Shown here in pieces: positions 36,571 through 47,983 of a stretch of DNA of 53,728 nt. The notes beneath the pieces were generated by a model. It was given only the letters and a program-made list of their open reading frames with translations. It was not told where the DNA came from and did not search any database. Origin of the DNA: Escherichia phage ES2-BCU-3; the sequence record PV733669.1. The stretch is one strand, 5' to 3'. Each line of letters starts with the position of its first letter. Positions within the stretch are counted from its first letter, which is position 1. The translations under genes were made by a program, and so were the position numbers.

Positions 36571-36628
36571 TTAACGTCTCCTCACTTAATATAGACATTA
36601 TATCACTTCCATGTGATAACGTACACTT

Positions 36629-38030: not shown

Positions 38031-38570
38031 TTACTCTTCCCAAGGAGCCGGTTCGTCGGTCTTACCAGACGTTGCACCAGCAGCGGCACTTGCCCCCGCA
38101 CCCGCAGTCACTGTTTGTTTCTGCGAGGTCGTTTGAGATGCACCTTGCGTTGAACCAACAGCAGTAGTTGCTTCAGACGCATTTTTGTATTCTTTAATAT
38201 CGTTGCGGTCGTCGTACTGACCGGTCTTATCAATCTTAATACCGACCTTACCCATTACGATGCGGTTTTCCAACAGGTCAGTGCTGGTAAGTTCAACGAT
38301 ACCAACTGCACGGCACAGCTGAGACAGTTTGCGGTGGCCAATATCAACAGCCTGTTGATTCGGGTTAGAGTAGGTAATCATGTCAAACACGACACGGTTA
38401 GCGAACTCACCTTCATTAACACGCAAACGAAGGGACAGGTATGAACCAGTTCCTGCAGCAGTCGGCTTAAGCTCGACTTCTTCAATCATCAGTTGATACC
38501 AGTTCTTAGGAATTGGGTCAAACGATGCTTGTGGTTCGACTTCTGCAGAGTTAAACTGTAATTCAGCCAT
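38031..38570 (-). CDS. Hypothetical protein, possible ssDNA-binding protein (DUF669-like)
   Basis: 179 aa with Gly/Ala/Thr-rich acidic C-terminal tail ending PAPWEE; adjacent to the RecA-like ATPase gene. Confidence 0.4.
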   Translation of the reverse strand: MAELQFNSAEVEPQASFDPIPKNWYQLMIEEVELKPTAAGTGSYLSLRLRVNEGEFANRVVFDMITYSNPNQQAVDIGHRKLSQLCRAVGIVELTSTDLLENRIVMGKVGIKIDKTGQYDDRNDIKEYKNASEATTAVGSTQGASQTTSQKQTVTAGAGASAAAGATSGKTDEPAPWEE

Positions 38571-39565: not shown

Positions 39566-39795
39566 TAATGATAGTCCTCGTATAACATTTCAGTGTCAGC
39601 GTACATCAGATAAAGTGCCTCGACGGCATCGTCCAGACTCTCGAATTGTTCACCGCAAACGTAGAACTCGGACACTCCGTCTTGTGGGTAACGTTCTTCA
39701 ACTACCCAGTCATGACGAATACCGTAAGTCCAATAGTCACAGGCTTCACCTGCTTTCAGTTTACGGGTGGCTTTGAATTGGTTGAGTGTTAACAT
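39565..39795 (-). CDS. Hypothetical protein
   Basis: 76 aa; GAGGAG RBS; own promoter. Confidence 0.5.
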   Translation of the reverse strand: MLTLNQFKATRKLKAGEACDYWTYGIRHDWVVEERYPQDGVSEFYVCGEQFESLDDAVEALYLMYADTEMLYEDYH

Positions 39796-39821
39796 GGCTC
39801 GCTCCTCATGTGTATAGGAGT

Positions 39822-39851
39822 ATTATACCCCACTTACATGGGGTATGTACA
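39822..39851 (-). promoter_or_regulatory. Early-type promoter (GTGTACATA -35 region, TATAAT -10), minus strand
   Basis: Minus strand reads GTGTACATAC-N16-TATAAT; tgtaca 39846..39851, attata 39822..39827. Confidence 0.5.
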
Positions 39852-39854
39852 CTA

Positions 39855-40280
39855 CTATTTCACACGAGTTGCGTTACACGCCATCGGATGGTGACCAAGT
39901 CTTGTGATAAGACCGTCAAGCAGAATTCCAGCGTGAGTCTCGTTGTATGCTTCTACCCACAATGGCAATTCCATGTTCGGCATGTACACGTTGAACTTGT
40001 ACACTTCTTTGAATGCCTTGCTGACAAGCATAATGGCAAGAGGTTTCGGAAGTTCAATACCTTTGTTCTTCCAGAAGTTATGGAACTCATCACCGTTGAC
40101 AATACCGTGCAGTATACGCTGAGTCAAGTCAGTCTTGAGGTCTGCCCTTGCTCTGGTATTGATATAGAAACGGCAAGAGAAGAACTCATTGACGTTAACG
40201 ACATCAACCGCATAAACCATGTTAGGTTCATCGGTTGTTGGTGCGGTGTATACTACGTGTTTAGTTTTGAACAGTTCCAT
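39855..40280 (-). CDS. Hypothetical protein
   Basis: 141-aa ORF. Confidence 0.5.
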   Translation of the reverse strand: MELFKTKHVVYTAPTTDEPNMVYAVDVVNVNEFFSCRFYINTRARADLKTDLTQRILHGIVNGDEFHNFWKNKGIELPKPLAIMLVSKAFKEVYKFNVYMPNMELPLWVEAYNETHAGILLDGLITRLGHHPMACNATRVK

Positions 40281-40326
40281 CGTACTCTCCTTGGAGGAAG
40301 AGGCGGGATTGCTCCCGCCGTATTGA

Positions 40327-41646
40327 TTATTGCAGTTGGTCTTTCAGTGCAGCGATACCCTGGAGCAGAGAAGCAATCTCAGGATTGGTCTGAGCCAGCT
40401 CCATTACAACAGACTGCTTACGACGGTCCATCTCAGCCTGTACTTCCAGGTCAAGACGTGCAGATGCTTCACGCAGTAACTGTTCAGCTTGCTGACGACG
40501 TTCATACTTCTCGAAGTCAGGTACAGACACAATCCACTTCAGCGTCGCGCTGTTAAAGCCTGACGAGTTGGCTTCAGACACAGACACAACATCAACCAGC
40601 TTAGTACCTGCCAGCTCAGGATAGTTGCTGTTACGAACATCAACAACAGCTTTGTCACCGACTTTAACTTTGCCGATGTATTTGTAAGTATACACACGAC
40701 CGTTAGGTTCAAACTTAACGCCGACATACTTCAGTTTGTCGTCCGCAGTTTCAACACCCTGAGTCAGGTTAATCGACACAGGTGCAGAATGAGTATGGTT
40801 AGCCAGCTGTTGAGCAGACATCATTTTAGATGTCAGGTACTGCTCAGAGAAGATTGGCTTAATAGAGCTGAATACATTTTCATTGTAAGTCAGCCAGTTA
40901 CCAGTCTCGTCGATACAAGCAATCTGGCTTGTACCATCCAGCGAACGAACGCCAGGACGGTTCTTTTCGATGTTGTACAGTTTACCGATGTTCAGGTTAG
41001 CATACTGCTTGCACGCAATACCCCAGTTCTGTTTTTCGGATTTGAACTGTTGGAAACGGTTGGTGCTGAAGTTCTGCTTCAGACCGCGGTCGTCGATAAT
41101 CCAGATGTTCTCATACGCATTATCGGTGGCGCCGAGATTAGCGTACACCTTGCCCTGAGTCAGCAAGCGAGTGTTACCTTCGTCAACACAGATAACGAAG
41201 TTAACTGCATCGTGAGCTTTACCGTTTTTATCGAATACTTTAGCCATTGTCTTTGTTTCCTTTGTCTGATGAACGCTTTTGATACGAGCTGTATATTGAC
41301 CAGGTTTAATTGGTCCGTCTGTTGTAAGTGCCAGCTTAACGCAAACACCTTTACCTATTAATTGTGTTAATTCCACTTGAGTCACCTCAGGTTGTGGGCG
41401 GGAAAAGAACTCAGCCATCTCAAACGAACTCCACCAAAAAGAAGCGTTAAATGGATGTTCGCTCAAATCAAGGATAGGTTTTCCCGCGCTGAAGTGAGCC
41501 GGTGCCTTACCCTGGTAGTTGACGCTCTTACCGATGTTTGAAGCATCCATGGCAATCTGTTCCAGACGAGCGATTGCTGCTTCATACTTACGTTCAAAAG
41601 CTGTAGGACCAAACAGCGCACGACGAATACTGGACAGATTGAACAT
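40327..41646 (-). CDS. Hypothetical protein (439 aa)
   Basis: Long early-region ORF with AAGGA RBS and own promoter; C-terminal coiled coil. Confidence 0.55.
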   Translation of the reverse strand: MFNLSSIRRALFGPTAFERKYEAAIARLEQIAMDASNIGKSVNYQGKAPAHFSAGKPILDLSEHPFNASFWWSSFEMAEFFSRPQPEVTQVELTQLIGKGVCVKLALTTDGPIKPGQYTARIKSVHQTKETKTMAKVFDKNGKAHDAVNFVICVDEGNTRLLTQGKVYANLGATDNAYENIWIIDDRGLKQNFSTNRFQQFKSEKQNWGIACKQYANLNIGKLYNIEKNRPGVRSLDGTSQIACIDETGNWLTYNENVFSSIKPIFSEQYLTSKMMSAQQLANHTHSAPVSINLTQGVETADDKLKYVGVKFEPNGRVYTYKYIGKVKVGDKAVVDVRNSNYPELAGTKLVDVVSVSEANSSGFNSATLKWIVSVPDFEKYERRQQAEQLLREASARLDLEVQAEMDRRKQSVVMELAQTNPEIASLLQGIAALKDQLQ

Positions 41647-41680
41647 GATTGTGTTTCCTTATTGCTTAACCGTTAAAAAG

Positions 41681-41710
41681 ATTATATCACTAGTTAGTGG
41701 TGATGTATAC
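41681..41710 (-). promoter_or_regulatory. Early-type promoter (GTATACAT -35 region, extended -10), minus strand
   Basis: Minus strand reads GGTATACATCA-N-TAGTGATATAAT; gtatac 41705..41710, attata 41681..41686. Confidence 0.45.
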
Positions 41711-41712
41711 CT

Positions 41713-42009
41713 TTATTTTAATAAAGAAGTGCAAATAGCATCACACAAACAATGATGAGGTTGCTCGTAGTCTGCAAACATAAACTGCTTACCATTAGCA
41801 ATGACAAGCTCATCCTCAATGCGCAGTTCAATACCAGCCTTCAGCATTAAGTCAAAGGCTTGCTCTTTGTTCTTGTACGGGTCATAGATAAGATGAAACC
41901 CAGACCCACAAAGAAGACAAGGTTTGCCTTCCAGTTTGTATGCAGCAGACTCTTTGACAGTGACACCTGCAATGTGCGCCAGCTTCGCTAAATCATCTAA
42001 CTTAGCCAT
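41713..42009 (-). CDS. Hypothetical protein
   Basis: 98-aa ORF with Cys/His pairs (CLLCGSGFH; HHCLCDAIC). Confidence 0.45.
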   Translation of the reverse strand: MAKLDDLAKLAHIAGVTVKESAAYKLEGKPCLLCGSGFHLIYDPYKNKEQAFDLMLKAGIELRIEDELVIANGKQFMFADYEQPHHCLCDAICTSLLK

Positions 42010-45147: not shown

Positions 45148-45480
45148 ATGATTAAGCCAAAGCTGTTACGGCACATTCGTAACGGTGTTAAACTGCTTGC
45201 CGAAGGAAATGAGTATACTTGCAAGCAACGAGGTATCACAAAAGTCGGTCTATTTAATAAAGAACTGCCAATGCGATATTTCACCAAGTCACCATTGACC
45301 CTGGTTCCTGCAGCAGAGTATTACAAAGACCCCGAAGCAGCACGTGCAAAGATTAAGGATGCACTTGATTTGCTTGTCGAGGAAGGCTACTTGACTATTC
45401 GTCAACACACTGAATCATCTTTCTATTATAAGCCAACCCTCAAGGTAACCAGCAATGACAATGACGAGTCAGCCGAGTGA
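45148..45480 (+). CDS. Hypothetical protein
   Basis: 110-aa ORF with AGAGGAG RBS. Confidence 0.5.
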   Translation: MIKPKLLRHIRNGVKLLAEGNEYTCKQRGITKVGLFNKELPMRYFTKSPLTLVPAAEYYKDPEAARAKIKDALDLLVEEGYLTIRQHTESSFYYKPTLKVTSNDNDESAE

Positions 45481-47983
45481 TATTTTAGGGCTGAAGTTCT
45501 TCAAACCAGAAGGCATCCCTCAAGTCTTCAAAGATATGAAGCGCTGGGGTATCTTCGAATTAACGTACGAAGACGATAAGCTCGAAGTACAATCAAAACC
45601 TAAGAAACCGGCAAGGGCCCCGTCCGGGCGTTCCTTTAGCACCACTGTACCTGAAGAGTGGATGACATTCGACGAAGCATTGAATCGATGCATTCGCAAC
45701 CGTGAGATGAAGATTAAAGCTGTACAGGGTAATATAACCTTTGTACCAGCATTGATTGTTCCTCGCCAATGGTACTTTGTTGACCTGGACAACCATGAAG
45801 ACAACCCAGATATTGAGGCAACCCACAAAGCCATAATTGAAGGGACTCGCGGTGCTTATGCTGAGACATCTATCTCGGGTAAAGGTCAGCACATCGCTAT
45901 ACCATTACCATGGACTGCAGCAACGTCCAAAGAGAAAGACGACCTGCTGGACATCAAAATCCAGAAGGCTGAGATGTTCCTGGTAATGACAGGTAACGTG
46001 TTGAGTGAGTTCAATGCCAACCCTGTATCAGCCAAGCAATGGCATGAAGCTATTGAGCGATTCTTCCGTGATGCTTCAGCTCCTGATATTGATGTACAGT
46101 TTGAGCAAGACCCTGACCTGGGTGAAGAGCATGACAAAGAGCTGTATGCTCAGTTAGCCGAGAATACTCGTTGGGCATTAGAACACCCAATGAATGAGCA
46201 TGCACCTGATGGTGTTGGTGTAAGTAATGATGGTTCCGAACGTCTTAGCCGTATATTGAAAGACTTACTTCGTGTTACCCGTAATTACGAAGTCACACAG
46301 CGCATCTTTATGTCAAGTGCTGCAGCTCAGTACTCAGGACGACGTGCAAGCCGTATCAATTTGAGTGAGACACAATATCTGCAATGGTTCAGCCGTGTAG
46401 GTAAGACTGTACTCAAAGAGATGCAACGTGACGGACTGTTTGTCAAGACTGCATTTGCTCTGGACATTAACAAAGAGCTGATGAAGAAGTCTGGCATTAA
46501 ACTTGCCGACAATGTAGAGTTCAAGGTTGATGAAGACATTCTACCGTCTGAAGAGTTTGTACGTACAGCCCCAACAGGTTTCAAAGCTCTTATCGCCGAA
46601 GTGCAAAGCAATATTGCACCAAGCAAACGAGTGAATGACTACGCCATCGGCACCGCACTCAATATCCTGAGTAACTGTGCAGGACGCAAGTATGTTTGCC
46701 CTGTTGAAGGTCATGCAAACTTCCTGGTGACTAACATCATCCTTGTGGGTGGTTCATCTATCGGTAAGTCACTTTATACCGAGATGTTCCCGCAGATTCA
46801 GGCCGGCCTTCCAGAAGGTTCACCGCTGAGTCTGTTACGCATACCCCGTGAGCAGACGTTTGCAACCAGGACATTCGCCGAGATGATGGCTAACCCGTCA
46901 TTCCACTCGGTACAACTGTTCTACCCTGAATTTGGCCTGGCATTAGGTTCTGGTTTACGCATGAACCCTAACAACCCAGACAACTTCCAGAAGGCTTTAA
47001 TGGATGCTTCAACCAAGCGTAAGGTTGGCGGTATCTTAACAGGCATTAAACGTGCCAATGCTGAGAATGATGTTAAGGCGGTTCACGAACCTTGTTACTC
47101 TATCTTTGGTGACTCGACTCAAGAGCTTATCCTTGACAACACTCGTAAGCAAGACTTCTCATCTGGCTTCTTACCTCGCTTCCTGTTCATTCCGAACTAC
47201 GAACGAGCAGACTTTGCACAACCTGAGAAGGTAGGACGCCGTAAAGAAGTTCGCCGAGTACAGTTCAGCAAGGATATGATTGAACAGCTCGAGGCAATTG
47301 CTTATGTCAATGCTATTCCACCAAACGGACGGCTGAGACACGAACCAATCGCCATTTACGATGAGTCCGACGATGATGACATCTTGTATGAGTACCAATG
47401 CAAGATTAATGACATGCGTCGCTACTATCGTGATAACGAAGTTGCATCAGCCTTTGTGGGTCGTATGGGAGAATATGTCTTCAATATCGCCTCACTAATT
47501 GGCTTGCTTGATAATTGGGACAATCCTGTAATGACTCGTGATAACATTGAATGGGCATACAAATATGTTCTTCGTTGTATCACAGCCTGGGTTAACAATG
47601 CCAGCAAGGTAATTGCTCCACCTACAACTGACGCTGAAGTGGTTGACGGCTTCCTCAAAGTGTATCGGGACCTTTTGGCCCAGTACAACAAGAAAGGCTG
47701 GAAAGGTATTGTCAAGCATTATCCTGATAACATTGTACGCAATCTCAAGGAAGACCACCTCAAGATGAATGGCTTATCAATATATGCTATTCGTCAAAGT
47801 ATGGGCTGGTTTAAGACTTCTTACAACTTTGAGATTAAGAACAAGGCAATTGACGGCATGCTCAAGGATATGATAGACCAGGACTACCTTGCTGTCCAAG
47901 TATATAAGCCACCCACAGGTAAGTCGTCCAATTTGTACTGCTTAACTGAACGCGGTTACTCAGAAGCCAAGAAACTTAAATAA
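45455..47983 (+). CDS. Primase-helicase (AEP-type primase/polymerase domain fused to SF3-type helicase)
   Basis: N-terminal VDLDNH and SGKGQHIAIP resemble the archaeo-eukaryotic primase catalytic core; C-terminal P-loop VGGSSIGKS with downstream acidic motifs typical of D5/SF3 helicases. Confidence 0.6.
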   Translation: MTMTSQPSDILGLKFFKPEGIPQVFKDMKRWGIFELTYEDDKLEVQSKPKKPARAPSGRSFSTTVPEEWMTFDEALNRCIRNREMKIKAVQGNITFVPALIVPRQWYFVDLDNHEDNPDIEATHKAIIEGTRGAYAETSISGKGQHIAIPLPWTAATSKEKDDLLDIKIQKAEMFLVMTGNVLSEFNANPVSAKQWHEAIERFFRDASAPDIDVQFEQDPDLGEEHDKELYAQLAENTRWALEHPMNEHAPDGVGVSNDGSERLSRILKDLLRVTRNYEVTQRIFMSSAAAQYSGRRASRINLSETQYLQWFSRVGKTVLKEMQRDGLFVKTAFALDINKELMKKSGIKLADNVEFKVDEDILPSEEFVRTAPTGFKALIAEVQSNIAPSKRVNDYAIGTALNILSNCAGRKYVCPVEGHANFLVTNIILVGGSSIGKSLYTEMFPQIQAGLPEGSPLSLLRIPREQTFATRTFAEMMANPSFHSVQLFYPEFGLALGSGLRMNPNNPDNFQKALMDASTKRKVGGILTGIKRANAENDVKAVHEPCYSIFGDSTQELILDNTRKQDFSSGFLPRFLFIPNYERADFAQPEKVGRRKEVRRVQFSKDMIEQLEAIAYVNAIPPNGRLRHEPIAIYDESDDDDILYEYQCKINDMRRYYRDNEVASAFVGRMGEYVFNIASLIGLLDNWDNPVMTRDNIEWAYKYVLRCITAWVNNASKVIAPPTTDAEVVDGFLKVYRDLLAQYNKKGWKGIVKHYPDNIVRNLKEDHLKMNGLSIYAIRQSMGWFKTSYNFEIKNKAIDGMLKDMIDQDYLAVQVYKPPTGKSSNLYCLTERGYSEAKKLK

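What the first reader, a model, noticed from the sequence alone, without database searches (positions are those of the whole stretch)
40327..41646. 439-aa early protein of unknown function with its own promoter
This is the largest unassigned gene in the replication/early cluster. It has a dedicated GTATACAT-type promoter (41681..41710) and a C-terminal coiled coil. Large orphan early genes are common places for host-takeover or anti-defence functions.
Basis: inference. Interest (0 to 1): 0.35.

Follow-up and report, generated by a model that had tools for sequence, protein, structure and literature searches.

The report
Phage replication protein with PriA-like domain
This 439-aa early phage gene is real and has its own promoter, but it looks like a conserved part of the phage's DNA replication/recombination module, carrying a domain resembling the DNA 3'-end-binding domain of the bacterial restart protein PriA, rather than a host-takeover or anti-defence gene.

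The parts
41681..41710 (-). Sigma-70-type promoter: -35 TATACA (41709..41704), 17-nt spacer, extended -10 TGATATAAT (41689..41681)
   Evidence: Consensus scan, 10/12 matches plus TG. Conserved in 9/9 related loci as GTRTAC...YGAYATAAT. One of three similar promoters in the cluster.
41647..41680 (-). 5' leader with Shine-Dalgarno AAGGAA (41660..41655), 8 nt before the ATG
   Evidence: Read directly from the sequence. The leader TTAACGGTTAAGCAAT is conserved in relatives.
40327..41646 (-). Coding sequence, 439 aa (49.1 kDa, pI 8.75), including the stop codon
   Evidence: ORF list. Orthologue S144 gp58 detected by MS with 5 peptides (PMC7432712). fHy-Eco03 Gp70 detected with 17 peptides and 53.5% coverage (PMC8145870). 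Codon-position substitution pattern is typical of coding sequence.
41248..41646 (-). Variable N-terminal extension, residues 1-133: low-confidence structure, dispensable
   Evidence: pLDDT below 50 for residues 20-132. The extension comes in at least three forms or is absent in relatives. It has been deleted in the viable phages emhyr and SOI901. Selection is relaxed: 24 synonymous vs 24 non-synonymous changes against SE4.
41245..41262 (-). In-frame internal Shine-Dalgarno AAGGAA (41262..41257) plus ATG of Met134 (41247..41245): predicted second start giving a 306-aa (34 kDa) isoform
   Evidence: Met134 is invariant in 23/23 sequences. AAGGAA lies 7-9 nt upstream in 9/9 loci. In fHy-Eco03 and L014 it sits in a different codon register (CAA GGA AAT). 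It serves as the true start in emhyr and SOI901. Use of this start in this phage is inferred, not shown.
40849..41247 (-). Tandem SH3-like barrels 1 and 2 (residues 134-205 and 206-266), the most conserved part of the full-length family
40741..40848 (-). Helix (268-284) and disordered, length-variable linker (285-302)
   Evidence: AlphaFold secondary structure and pLDDT. Indel-rich columns in the alignment.
40516..40740 (-). Barrel 3 (residues 303-377): PriA 3'-DNA-binding-domain-like beta-barrel
40330..40515 (-). C-terminal helical hairpin / coiled coil (residues 378-439), with a conserved (D/N)PE turn
   Evidence: AlphaFold helices 378-420 and 422-438. Conserved across the stand-alone module family. 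Moderate heptad periodicity.
40302..40319 (-). GC-rich hairpin 7 nt after the stop codon (GGCGGGA-GCAA-TCCCGCC), terminator-like with a weak T tail
   Evidence: Scan. Fold energy about -20 kcal/mol. A hairpin occurs at the same position with different stem sequences in 9/9 group loci, with T-rich tails in several.

Best explanation
The gene encodes a conserved accessory protein of the phage's recombination-dependent DNA replication module.

Shown:
- It is transcribed from its own conserved sigma-70-type promoter and is followed by a hairpin.
- It is abundantly expressed in relatives.
- It consists of a dispensable N-terminal extension, two tandem SH3-like barrels, a linker, a third barrel that is the structural counterpart of the PriA 3'-DNA-binding domain, and a helical hairpin.
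- The last two elements form a module that also exists as a widespread stand-alone phage protein, encoded among replication genes.

Inferred:
- The PriA-like barrel binds a DNA 3' end at a fork or D-loop made by the neighbouring Sak4-like annealase, DUF669 SSB and exonuclease.
- The helical hairpin oligomerises the protein.
- The tandem SH3 barrels dock a partner: the SSB tail, the Sak4-like ATPase or the DUF3987 primase/helicase. Recombination intermediates are thereby handed to the phage replisome.
- This would be a helicase-less analogue of the PriA DNA-binding domain, of T4 gp59 or of the PriA-like activity of SPP1 G38P.
- In this phage, two isoforms (49 kDa and 34 kDa) are probably made from Met1 and the in-frame Met134.
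For: Structure:

Sequence:
- PriA_3primeBD is the Pfam family hit by the most module members (9/66).
- hhalign aligns the whole barrel in register, P = 9.6e-4. The score is 26-27, against a maximum of 19.9 in 400 shuffles and 9.6 for the reversed alignment.
- Barrels 1-2 give no PriA signal.
- Equivalents of pocket residues Tyr18 and Lys61 (roles from PMC5778457) are conserved in 65/66 and 61/66 sequences.

Context:
- Synteny is fixed: DUF7173 .. X .. AAA_24 (Sak4-like) .. DUF669 .. dCMP deaminase .. exonuclease .. SF2 helicase. This holds in the window, in four divergent relatives and in a distant 45-kb phage.
- Stand-alone modules lie directly upstream of AAA_24/DUF669 (L017, L020), directly upstream of PolA (L006, L018, L019), or next to Gam, dUTPase and RNase_T (L007).
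- The module is also found in coliphage Seurat gp53, 2 kb upstream of Sak4.
- The gene is present in 60/60 group genomes.

Expression:
- fHy-Eco03 Gp70 is the most abundant non-structural protein in a preparation that also contains the primase/helicase, Sak4-like ATPase, helicase, PolA, SSB and exonuclease. S144 gp58 is also detected.

Literature:
- DUF669 is an SSB that stimulates Sak4 (PMC5928155). Sak4 and its SSB are required for phage replication (PMC5499656).

Internal start.
Against: - No DNA-binding or partner-binding experiment exists for any member of the family.
- The window protein itself does not reach any Pfam threshold. The hhalign probability is only 22-31%.
- The PriA profile used was shallow (enterobacterial sequences only).
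- The equivalent of Asp17 is Thr/Ser and variable. Gly37 has no clear counterpart, because the loop carries an insertion. The 3'-end pocket may therefore not be preserved.
- SH3-like barrels are versatile, so fold similarity does not fix function.
- Phage early and middle genes cluster with replication genes anyway, which weakens guilt by association.
- The module was not found near Sak4 in Moraxella phage Mcat23 or in Idiomarinaceae phage 1N2-2.
- The two isoforms have not been observed.
Confidence: 0.5

Rival explanations
1. Host-takeover or anti-defence protein. One version is a PriA mimic that occupies fork or D-loop 3' ends to block host PriA- or RecG-dependent processing. Another is an end-protection factor that shields phage DNA ends from host nucleases or defence systems.
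For: - It is an early-region gene with its own strong promoter.
- The N-terminal extension is variable and fast-evolving, as is typical of host-interaction surfaces.
- A PriA-like domain without a helicase could act as a competitor.
- The L005 neighbourhood contains an anti-Gabija Gad1 gene.
Against: - The gene is universal (60/60) and syntenic within the replication/recombination operon across genera and in distant phages. Anti-defence genes are usually patchy.
- The core is under strong purifying selection.
- The variable N-extension is dispensable.
- There are no PADLOC or Pfam matches to defence-related families.
- No toxicity data exist, because the homologue was excluded from the screen.
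Confidence: 0.15
2. Transcription or RNA-directed factor. The KOW/Tudor/SH3-like barrels bind host RNA polymerase or RNA, as in NusG/Spt5 KOW, CarD/Mfd RID or the ProQ C-terminal domain. The protein would help switch the host polymerase to middle or late phage genes.
For: - Foldseek's top hits on the whole model are Spt5 KOW arrays.
- 4/66 module members weakly hit Phage_ProQ_C_like.
- The phage has no RNA polymerase of its own and relies on the host enzyme (PMC7432712).
Against: - TM-scores to Spt5 are very low (0.12), reflecting only a string of small barrels.
- The gene's conserved neighbours are recombination and replication genes, not regulators.
- A DksA-type candidate regulator already exists in this phage group.
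Confidence: 0.1
3. Virion-associated (structural or co-packaged, injected) protein, as annotated for the homologue in phage fHy-Eco03.
For: Detected by LC-MS/MS of purified particles in two phages. In fHy-Eco03 it ranks 7th by spectral counts, above portal and sheath.
Against: - The same preparations contain primase/helicase, Sak4-like ATPase, thymidylate synthase, DHFR, helicase, PolA, SSB, exonuclease and terminase. S144 preparations also contain endolysin and spanins. Detection is therefore not specific for virion components.
- The gene lies in the early, leftward replication cluster under a sigma-70-type promoter, far from the structural module.
- There is no fold similarity to structural proteins.
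Confidence: 0.05

Closest known systems
PriA (primosomal protein N') N-terminal 3'-DNA-binding domain, Pfam PF17764 (PDB 2D7E, 6DGD)
   Different: There is no winged-helix domain, SF2 helicase core, zinc-binding region or C-terminal domain. The window protein does not reach the Pfam threshold. The Asp17 counterpart is Thr/Ser, and the Gly37 loop carries an insertion. The barrel is followed by a long helical hairpin and preceded by two SH3-like barrels. It is a PriA-3'BD-like domain, not a PriA.
Stand-alone phage proteins of 120-145 aa: PHROGs 13551, 3489, 27666 and 36612; partly Pfam DUF5839; coliphage Seurat gp53
   Same: They share the barrel-plus-helical-hairpin module end to end, with E down to 1e-31 against the PHROG profiles. 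There are 499 clusters at E <= 1e-3. They sit among replication genes and, in L020, in the very same slot of the module.
   Different: They lack the tandem SH3 barrels and the N-terminal extension. All are of unknown function. The window protein itself does not hit DUF5839, although 7/66 relatives do (best E = 1e-5).
Phage-encoded fork/D-loop recognition and helicase-loading factors: T4 gp59, and the PriA-like activity of SPP1 G38P (established knowledge; G38P as cited in PMC5499656)
   Same: The proposed role is the same: a non-helicase phage protein that recognises branched replication/recombination intermediates and couples them to loading of the phage replisome. Like those factors, it is encoded with the phage recombinase and SSB.
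   Different: No sequence or fold relationship to these proteins was found or tested here. The analogy is functional and inferred.
Tandem SH3 domains (e.g. STAC2, PDB 6B26)
   Different: Sequence identity is only 12% and the biology is unrelated. The ligand of the phage barrels is unknown.
Genes with in-frame internal starts that give two isoforms (e.g. T7 gene 4A/4B; established knowledge)
   Same: A conserved Shine-Dalgarno sequence plus ATG lies inside the ORF, in frame, at a domain boundary.
   Different: The two products have not been observed for this gene.

Membership tests
PriA / Pfam PriA_3primeBD (PF17764) | N-terminal 3'BD beta-barrel fold | tested here: met
PriA / Pfam PriA_3primeBD (PF17764) | Sequence match above the Pfam gathering score (22.7 bits) | tested here: not met
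   The window protein has no hit at E <= 1. Only sub-threshold hits occur, in 9/66 relatives (best E 0.004). hhalign gives P about 1e-3 and probability 22-31%.
PriA / Pfam PriA_3primeBD (PF17764) | 3'-end pocket residues Asp17, Tyr18, Gly37 and Lys61 (PMC5778457) | tested here: inconclusive
   The Tyr18 equivalent is Y/F in 65/66 sequences and the Lys61 equivalent is K/R in 61/66. The Asp17 equivalent is Thr/Ser in 34/66 and variable. Gly37 is not alignable.
PriA (whole protein) | Winged-helix domain, SF2 helicase lobes and Cys-rich zinc region | tested here: not met
   No Pfam, NCBIfam or PDB-sequence hits. The AlphaFold model contains only small barrels and helices.
PriA (whole protein) | Binding of a nascent-strand 3' end at forks or D-loops | not testable with these tools
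   Requires EMSA or a structure with DNA.
Stand-alone barrel-plus-helix phage module (PHROG 13551 / 3489; related to DUF5839) | End-to-end profile match of the module | tested here: met
   phrog_13551 E = 1e-31 (residues 295-435) and phrog_3489 E = 3e-9. 499 representative clusters match. The A2 profile vs the family's own barrel 3 gives P = 2e-21.
Pfam DUF5839 (PF19157) | Pfam match of the window protein | tested here: not met
   The window protein has no hit. 7/66 relatives hit, best E = 1e-5.
Tandem SH3-like domains | Two consecutive SH3 folds in a fixed arrangement | tested here: met
Anti-defence / host-takeover accessory genes | Patchy distribution and variable location among related phages | tested here: not met
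   Present in 60 records, the same number that carry the Sak4 gene at >= 60% identity. Synteny is fixed.
Anti-defence / host-takeover accessory genes | Toxicity to the host or inhibition of a defence system | not tested
   fHy-Eco03 gp70 was excluded from the published toxicity screen (PMC8145870).
Virion structural proteins | Specific presence in particles and a gene in the late structural module | tested here: not met
   MS detection is shared with the whole replication machinery. The gene lies in the early replication cluster.
Dual-start (in-frame internal initiation) genes | Conserved internal Shine-Dalgarno plus start codon | tested here: met
   AAGGAA lies 7-9 nt before the invariant Met134 in 9/9 loci, independent of codon register. 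It is the sole start in emhyr and SOI901.
Dual-start (in-frame internal initiation) genes | Two protein products observed | not testable with these tools
   The published proteomes give no peptide-level N-termini.

The most novel reading that the evidence does not exclude
The gene is the multidomain founding example of an unrecognised, widespread family of phage-encoded, helicase-less PriA-3'BD-like proteins (about 500 clusters at 50% identity). These would sense DNA 3' ends at forks and D-loops and couple Sak4/SSB-type recombination to loading of the phage replisome. That would fill the 'PriA/gp59-like' role in many phages where no such factor is known. In this lineage the protein would additionally be produced as two isoforms from an in-frame internal start.
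Probability: 0.3. Interest if true: 0.65.

Novelty: new variant of a known kind. Interest (0 to 1): 0.42.

Why it matters
Sak4-type recombination modules are common in phages, and Sak4 plus its SSB are required for phage DNA replication (PMC5499656). How recombination intermediates are handed to the replisome in these phages is not known.

A conserved, abundant protein with a PriA-3'BD-like domain sits at the head of the module. Its minimal form is a widespread 'hypothetical' phage protein. This gives a concrete, testable candidate for that step, and a functional lead for several PHROG families and probably DUF5839.

It also corrects the 'putative structural protein' annotation in fHy-Eco03. 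And it removes this gene from the list of likely anti-defence candidates.

Tried and rejected
**Searches that gave nothing specific**
- Direct sequence searches with the full protein found no named family: Pfam, NCBIfam, PADLOC and PDB sequences. A PDB profile search with the module alignment also found nothing.
- Literature searches for DUF5839, PF17764 or PriA_3primeBD in a phage context returned nothing.

**Hypotheses considered and rejected**
- Missing primase or initiator. I considered this because S144 annotates none. It is rejected: the fold contains only SH3-like barrels and helices, and the phage group has an 842-845 aa DUF3987-type primase/helicase.
- PSP1/YaaT-like domain. This was a resemblance recalled from memory. 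PSP1 was not among the families hit by any appreciable number of the 66 members.
- Structural protein (the fHy-Eco03 annotation). Rejected because the same MS data list the entire replication machinery.
- Exact 'GTATACAT' as a promoter class. It is not enriched; only the relaxed form is.
- Opposite-strand ORFs overlapping the gene (190 aa at 40789..41361 + and 256 aa at 39786..40556 +). I treat these as mechanical artefacts: no homologues were sought, and the minus-strand frame carries all the conservation.

Full report
**1. Observation**

The window is a Loughboroughvirus genome. It is 97% identical at the nucleotide level to Salmonella phages S144 and ZCSE2 over the gene. The ORF at 40327..41646 (minus strand, ATG, 439 aa) exists as described and corresponds to S144 ORF58, 'conserved hypothetical'.

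Upstream, in a 66-nt intergenic gap, lies TATACA-17 nt-TATAAT with a TGn extended -10 (41709..41681). An AAGGAA Shine-Dalgarno sequence sits 8 nt before the ATG.

The number of promoter-like sites in the region is no more than shuffles give. This particular site, however, is conserved at the same position in nine loci spanning Loughboroughvirus, Rosemountvirus, an Erwinia phage and several metagenomic relatives.

The exact octamer GTATACAT is not recurrent (2 hits vs 1.65 expected). A relaxed GTRTAC-N17-21-AYAAT is enriched (6 vs 0.78 expected), with three intergenic minus-strand copies at 41710, 39852 and 36626.

A GC-rich hairpin follows the stop codon (40302..40319). A hairpin with a different stem sequence occupies the same place in 9/9 related loci. 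The gene is therefore a promoter-gene-hairpin unit.

**2. The protein is real and abundant**

Codon-position substitution patterns against phages SE4 and AEV23 are those of coding sequence. The C-terminal third is under the strongest constraint (29 synonymous vs 5 non-synonymous changes). The first 133 codons are the most relaxed (24 vs 24).

Two published proteomes detect the protein:
- S144 gp58: 5 peptides, 16% coverage (PMC7432712).
- fHy-Eco03 Gp70: 17 peptides, 53.5% coverage, 35 PSMs (PMC8145870 supplement).

In the fHy-Eco03 dataset it is the most abundant non-structural protein, ahead of the portal and the sheath. The same preparation contains primase/helicase, Sak4-like ATPase, thymidylate synthase, DHFR, helicase, PolA, SSB, exonuclease and terminase. 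The 'putative structural protein' label in MW602648 is therefore not justified. What the data show is high expression and co-purification with the replication machinery.

Because it was labelled structural, Gp70 was left out of that paper's toxicity screen.

**3. Family and architecture**

Pfam, NCBIfam, PADLOC and PDB sequence searches give nothing. PHROGs gives only families of unknown function. Notably, residues about 295-435 also match PHROGs made of 125-136 aa proteins.

The 5.8-billion-protein search finds 22 full-length relatives, nearly all on contigs of about 52-54 kb. Their alignment shows:
- an invariant Met134;
- a highly conserved core from there on, including the invariant motifs FVICVDEG..LLTQGKVYANLG, IDDRGLKQNFS and YTYK;
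- an N-terminal extension that comes in at least three forms or is absent.

The exhaustive profile search finds only about 7 clusters with the full architecture, but 499 that match the C-terminal module. Most of those are stand-alone proteins of 120-145 aa.

AlphaFold gives:
- low confidence for residues 1-133;
- two confident beta-barrels (134-266);
- a helix and a disordered linker;
- a third barrel (305-374);
- long helices (378-438).

The module alone, modelled with 66 diverse relatives, reaches pLDDT 95.

**4. What the domains are**

Foldseek on the whole model gave only generic strings of small barrels: Spt5 KOW, tandem Tudor and tandem SH3.

Sequence evidence agrees:
- Of 24,736 Pfam families, the one hit by most of the 66 module members is PriA_3primeBD (9 members, best E 0.004). 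DUF5839 comes next (7 members, best E = 1e-5).
- A profile-profile comparison with an alignment of genuine PriA N-termini aligns the entire barrel in register (70 columns, 27% identity, P = 9.6e-4). The PriA query sequence was checked as 100% identical to the PDB entries. Homologues came and the alignment.
- Locally, the real score (26-27) exceeds all 400 column- or block-shuffled controls (maximum 19.9) and the reversed alignment (9.6).
- The signal is specific to barrel 3. Barrels 1 and 2 match neither the module profile (P 0.15-0.39) nor PriA (P 0.21-0.49), but they match each other (P = 4e-4), indicating a duplication.

According to the review PMC5778457, the PriA pocket for the terminal nucleotide uses Asp17, Tyr18, Gly37 and Lys61. 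In the hhalign register, the equivalents in the 66 module sequences are:

| PriA residue | Phage equivalent | Conservation |
|---|---|---|
| Phe16 | Tyr319 | Y in 65/66 |
| Tyr18 | Tyr321 | Y/F in 65/66 |
| Lys61 | Lys370 | K/R in 61/66 |
| Asp68 | Asp377 | D in 62/66 |
| Asp17 | Thr320 | mostly Thr/Ser, variable |
| Gly37 | none | loop carries an insertion |

I conclude that barrel 3 is a PriA-3'BD-like domain. Fold similarity is shown and distant homology is probable. Whether the 3'-end pocket works the same way is open. The protein is not a PriA: it has no winged helix, helicase core or zinc region.

**5. Genomic context**

In the window, the gene is followed by:
- a 141-aa and a 76-aa ORF;
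- a Sak4-like AAA_24 ATPase;
- a DUF669 SSB;
- dCMP deaminase, an exonuclease and an SF2 helicase;
- further on, thymidylate synthase and PolA.

A DUF7173 gene lies upstream, and a divergent DUF3987-type primase/helicase lies at 45455..47983.

The same order is found in four divergent relatives. It is also found in a distant three-barrel homologue on a 45-kb contig.

Stand-alone modules occur in these contexts:
- between a PDDEXK exonuclease and AAA_24/DUF669 (L017);
- in exactly the window's slot, DUF7173 - module - AAA_24 - DUF669 - ... - helicase (L020);
- directly upstream of PolA (L006, L018, L019);
- next to HU, Gam, dUTPase and RNase_T (L007);
- near DnaB (L005).

Coliphage Seurat gp53 carries the module 2 kb upstream of its Sak4 gene. 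I did not find it near Sak4 in a Moraxella phage or an Idiomarinaceae phage.

In the phage collection, the gene occurs in 60 records, the same number that carry the neighbouring ATPase at >= 60% identity. It therefore appears to be universal in its group.

From the literature: DUF669 proteins are SSBs that stimulate Sak4 annealing (PMC5928155). Sak4 and its SSB are required for phage replication, and SPP1 G38P is a phage protein credited with a PriA-like activity (PMC5499656).

**6. Internal start**

Before Met134, the DNA reads AAGGAAACAAAGACAATG. That is nearly the same as the ribosome-binding site of the annotated start, AAGGAAACACAATCATG.

AAGGAA lies 7-9 nt upstream of this Met in 9/9 loci. 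In fHy-Eco03 and L014 it is kept in another codon register (CAA GGA AAT = Q-G-N, instead of AAG GAA = K-E). The nucleotide motif is therefore what is conserved, not the peptide.

In the viable phages emhyr and SOI901, the N-terminal extension has been deleted and this site is the only start.

I therefore predict a 34-kDa short isoform in addition to the 49-kDa protein, and I conclude that the extension is dispensable. Neither isoform has been observed directly.

**7. Interpretation**

The best-supported reading is an accessory factor of recombination-dependent replication.
- The PriA-like barrel would recognise a DNA 3' end at forks or D-loops made by the neighbouring annealase, SSB and exonuclease.
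- The helical hairpin would oligomerise the protein.
- The SH3 pair would dock a partner: the SSB tail (the DUF669 protein ends in ...DEPAPWEE), the ATPase or the primase/helicase.

Architecture, conservation, context and expression are shown. DNA binding, the partners and the hand-over to the replisome are inferred. I put this at about 0.5 overall. The general claim (a replication/recombination-associated nucleic-acid-binding factor) rates higher, and the specific 3'-end-sensing and loading mechanism rates lower.

The rivals are listed separately with their tests:
- anti-defence or host takeover, including a PriA-mimic version: 0.15;
- an RNA polymerase- or RNA-directed factor: 0.1;
- a virion protein: 0.05.

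**8. Novelty and score**

No paper or database names this family. The fold elements are known. The combination is new: a tandem SH3 pair, a helicase-less PriA-3'BD-like barrel and a helical hairpin. So is the recognition that the last two form a widespread stand-alone phage protein. I rate it a new variant of a known kind.

It offers a testable lead for a sizeable piece of phage 'dark matter' and for Sak4-type replication modules. The finding rests on remote similarity and context, and it is not startling to a specialist. Interest: 0.42.

Noticed in passing
window 39822..39852 (-), 36597..36626 (-), 41681..41710 (-): The three GTRTAC/extended -10 promoters of the replication cluster each contain an inverted repeat running from the spacer into the -10 region: TACCCCA..TGGGGTA, TATCAC..GTGATA and ATCAC..GTGAT. 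The repeat sequences differ between promoters. The repeat is not kept in the orthologous promoters of emhyr or SOI901, so its significance is unclear.
   Followed up: partly
window 41713..42009 (-): The 98-aa gene immediately upstream is conserved in all relatives examined. It is Cys-rich (CLLCGSGF ... HHCLCDAIC), suggesting a small zinc-binding protein. It matches only PHROGs of unknown function.
   Followed up: partly
window 45455..47983 (+): This 842-aa gene is a weak DUF3987 match and corresponds to the 'DNA primase/helicase' Gp80 of fHy-Eco03. In the S144 record the orthologue is only a misc_feature labelled conserved hypothetical, with a note about anaerobic NTP reductase. That looks like an annotation problem.
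   Followed up: partly
L004 (MW602648.1, fHy-Eco03), whole locus: Many replication enzymes are annotated 'putative structural protein' because they were seen in LC-MS/MS of particles: Sak4-like ATPase, DUF669 SSB, exonuclease, and elsewhere primase/helicase, PolA and ThyA. These labels are probably misannotations that could spread to other records.
   Followed up: yes
PP583539.1 (hit H50): A record named 'Listeria phage 220426122051', with host Listeria monocytogenes, is a 53-kb Rosemountvirus-like genome. Its protein is 79% identical to this module, like the Salmonella and E. coli phages. The host label looks doubtful.
   Followed up: no
P0026, NCBI 'hypothetical protein KUO10_23060, partial [Vibrio vulnificus]': A 99-aa fragment 72% identical to the C-terminus of this Salmonella-phage protein is filed under Vibrio vulnificus. 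This is likely phage contamination of that assembly.
   Followed up: no
window about 41260..41325 (-) (residues about 108-130), and the linker of homologues P0009-P0022: A short segment of the type GK(G/L)..(K/Q)PG.Y.A.I occurs in the N-terminal extension of this protein. In many homologues it occurs instead as an insertion in the linker before barrel 3 (GKLQPGRYDATVQAVG...VIDFKVGD). It resembles the first strands of DUF669-type OB folds. This is a resemblance by eye only, not tested.
   Followed up: no
L021 3286..4077 (Escherichia phage Seurat gp53, YP_009151997.1): This 263-aa 'hypothetical protein' of the Queuovirinae model phage Seurat carries the module at its N-terminus (E = 1e-23). It lies in the RusA-dUTPase-RNase H-ligase-Sak4-Cas4-helicase cluster.
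   Followed up: partly
P0042 and P0047 (Achromobacter phage SE2, WNO48502.1; 552 and 508 aa), P0061: The module is also found fused to longer N-terminal regions with a helix-turn-helix-like stretch in other phages. These architectures were not analysed.
   Followed up: no
L005 3496..4287: An anti-Gabija Gad1 homologue (PF25705) lies about 3 kb upstream of a stand-alone module gene on a 58-kb metagenomic phage contig.
   Followed up: no
window 38031..38570 (-): The DUF669 SSB ends in ...DEPAPWEE, an acidic-aromatic tail reminiscent of the bacterial SSB C-terminal tip and of the NDYPPF tail of the HK620 SSB that mediates partner contacts.
   Followed up: no
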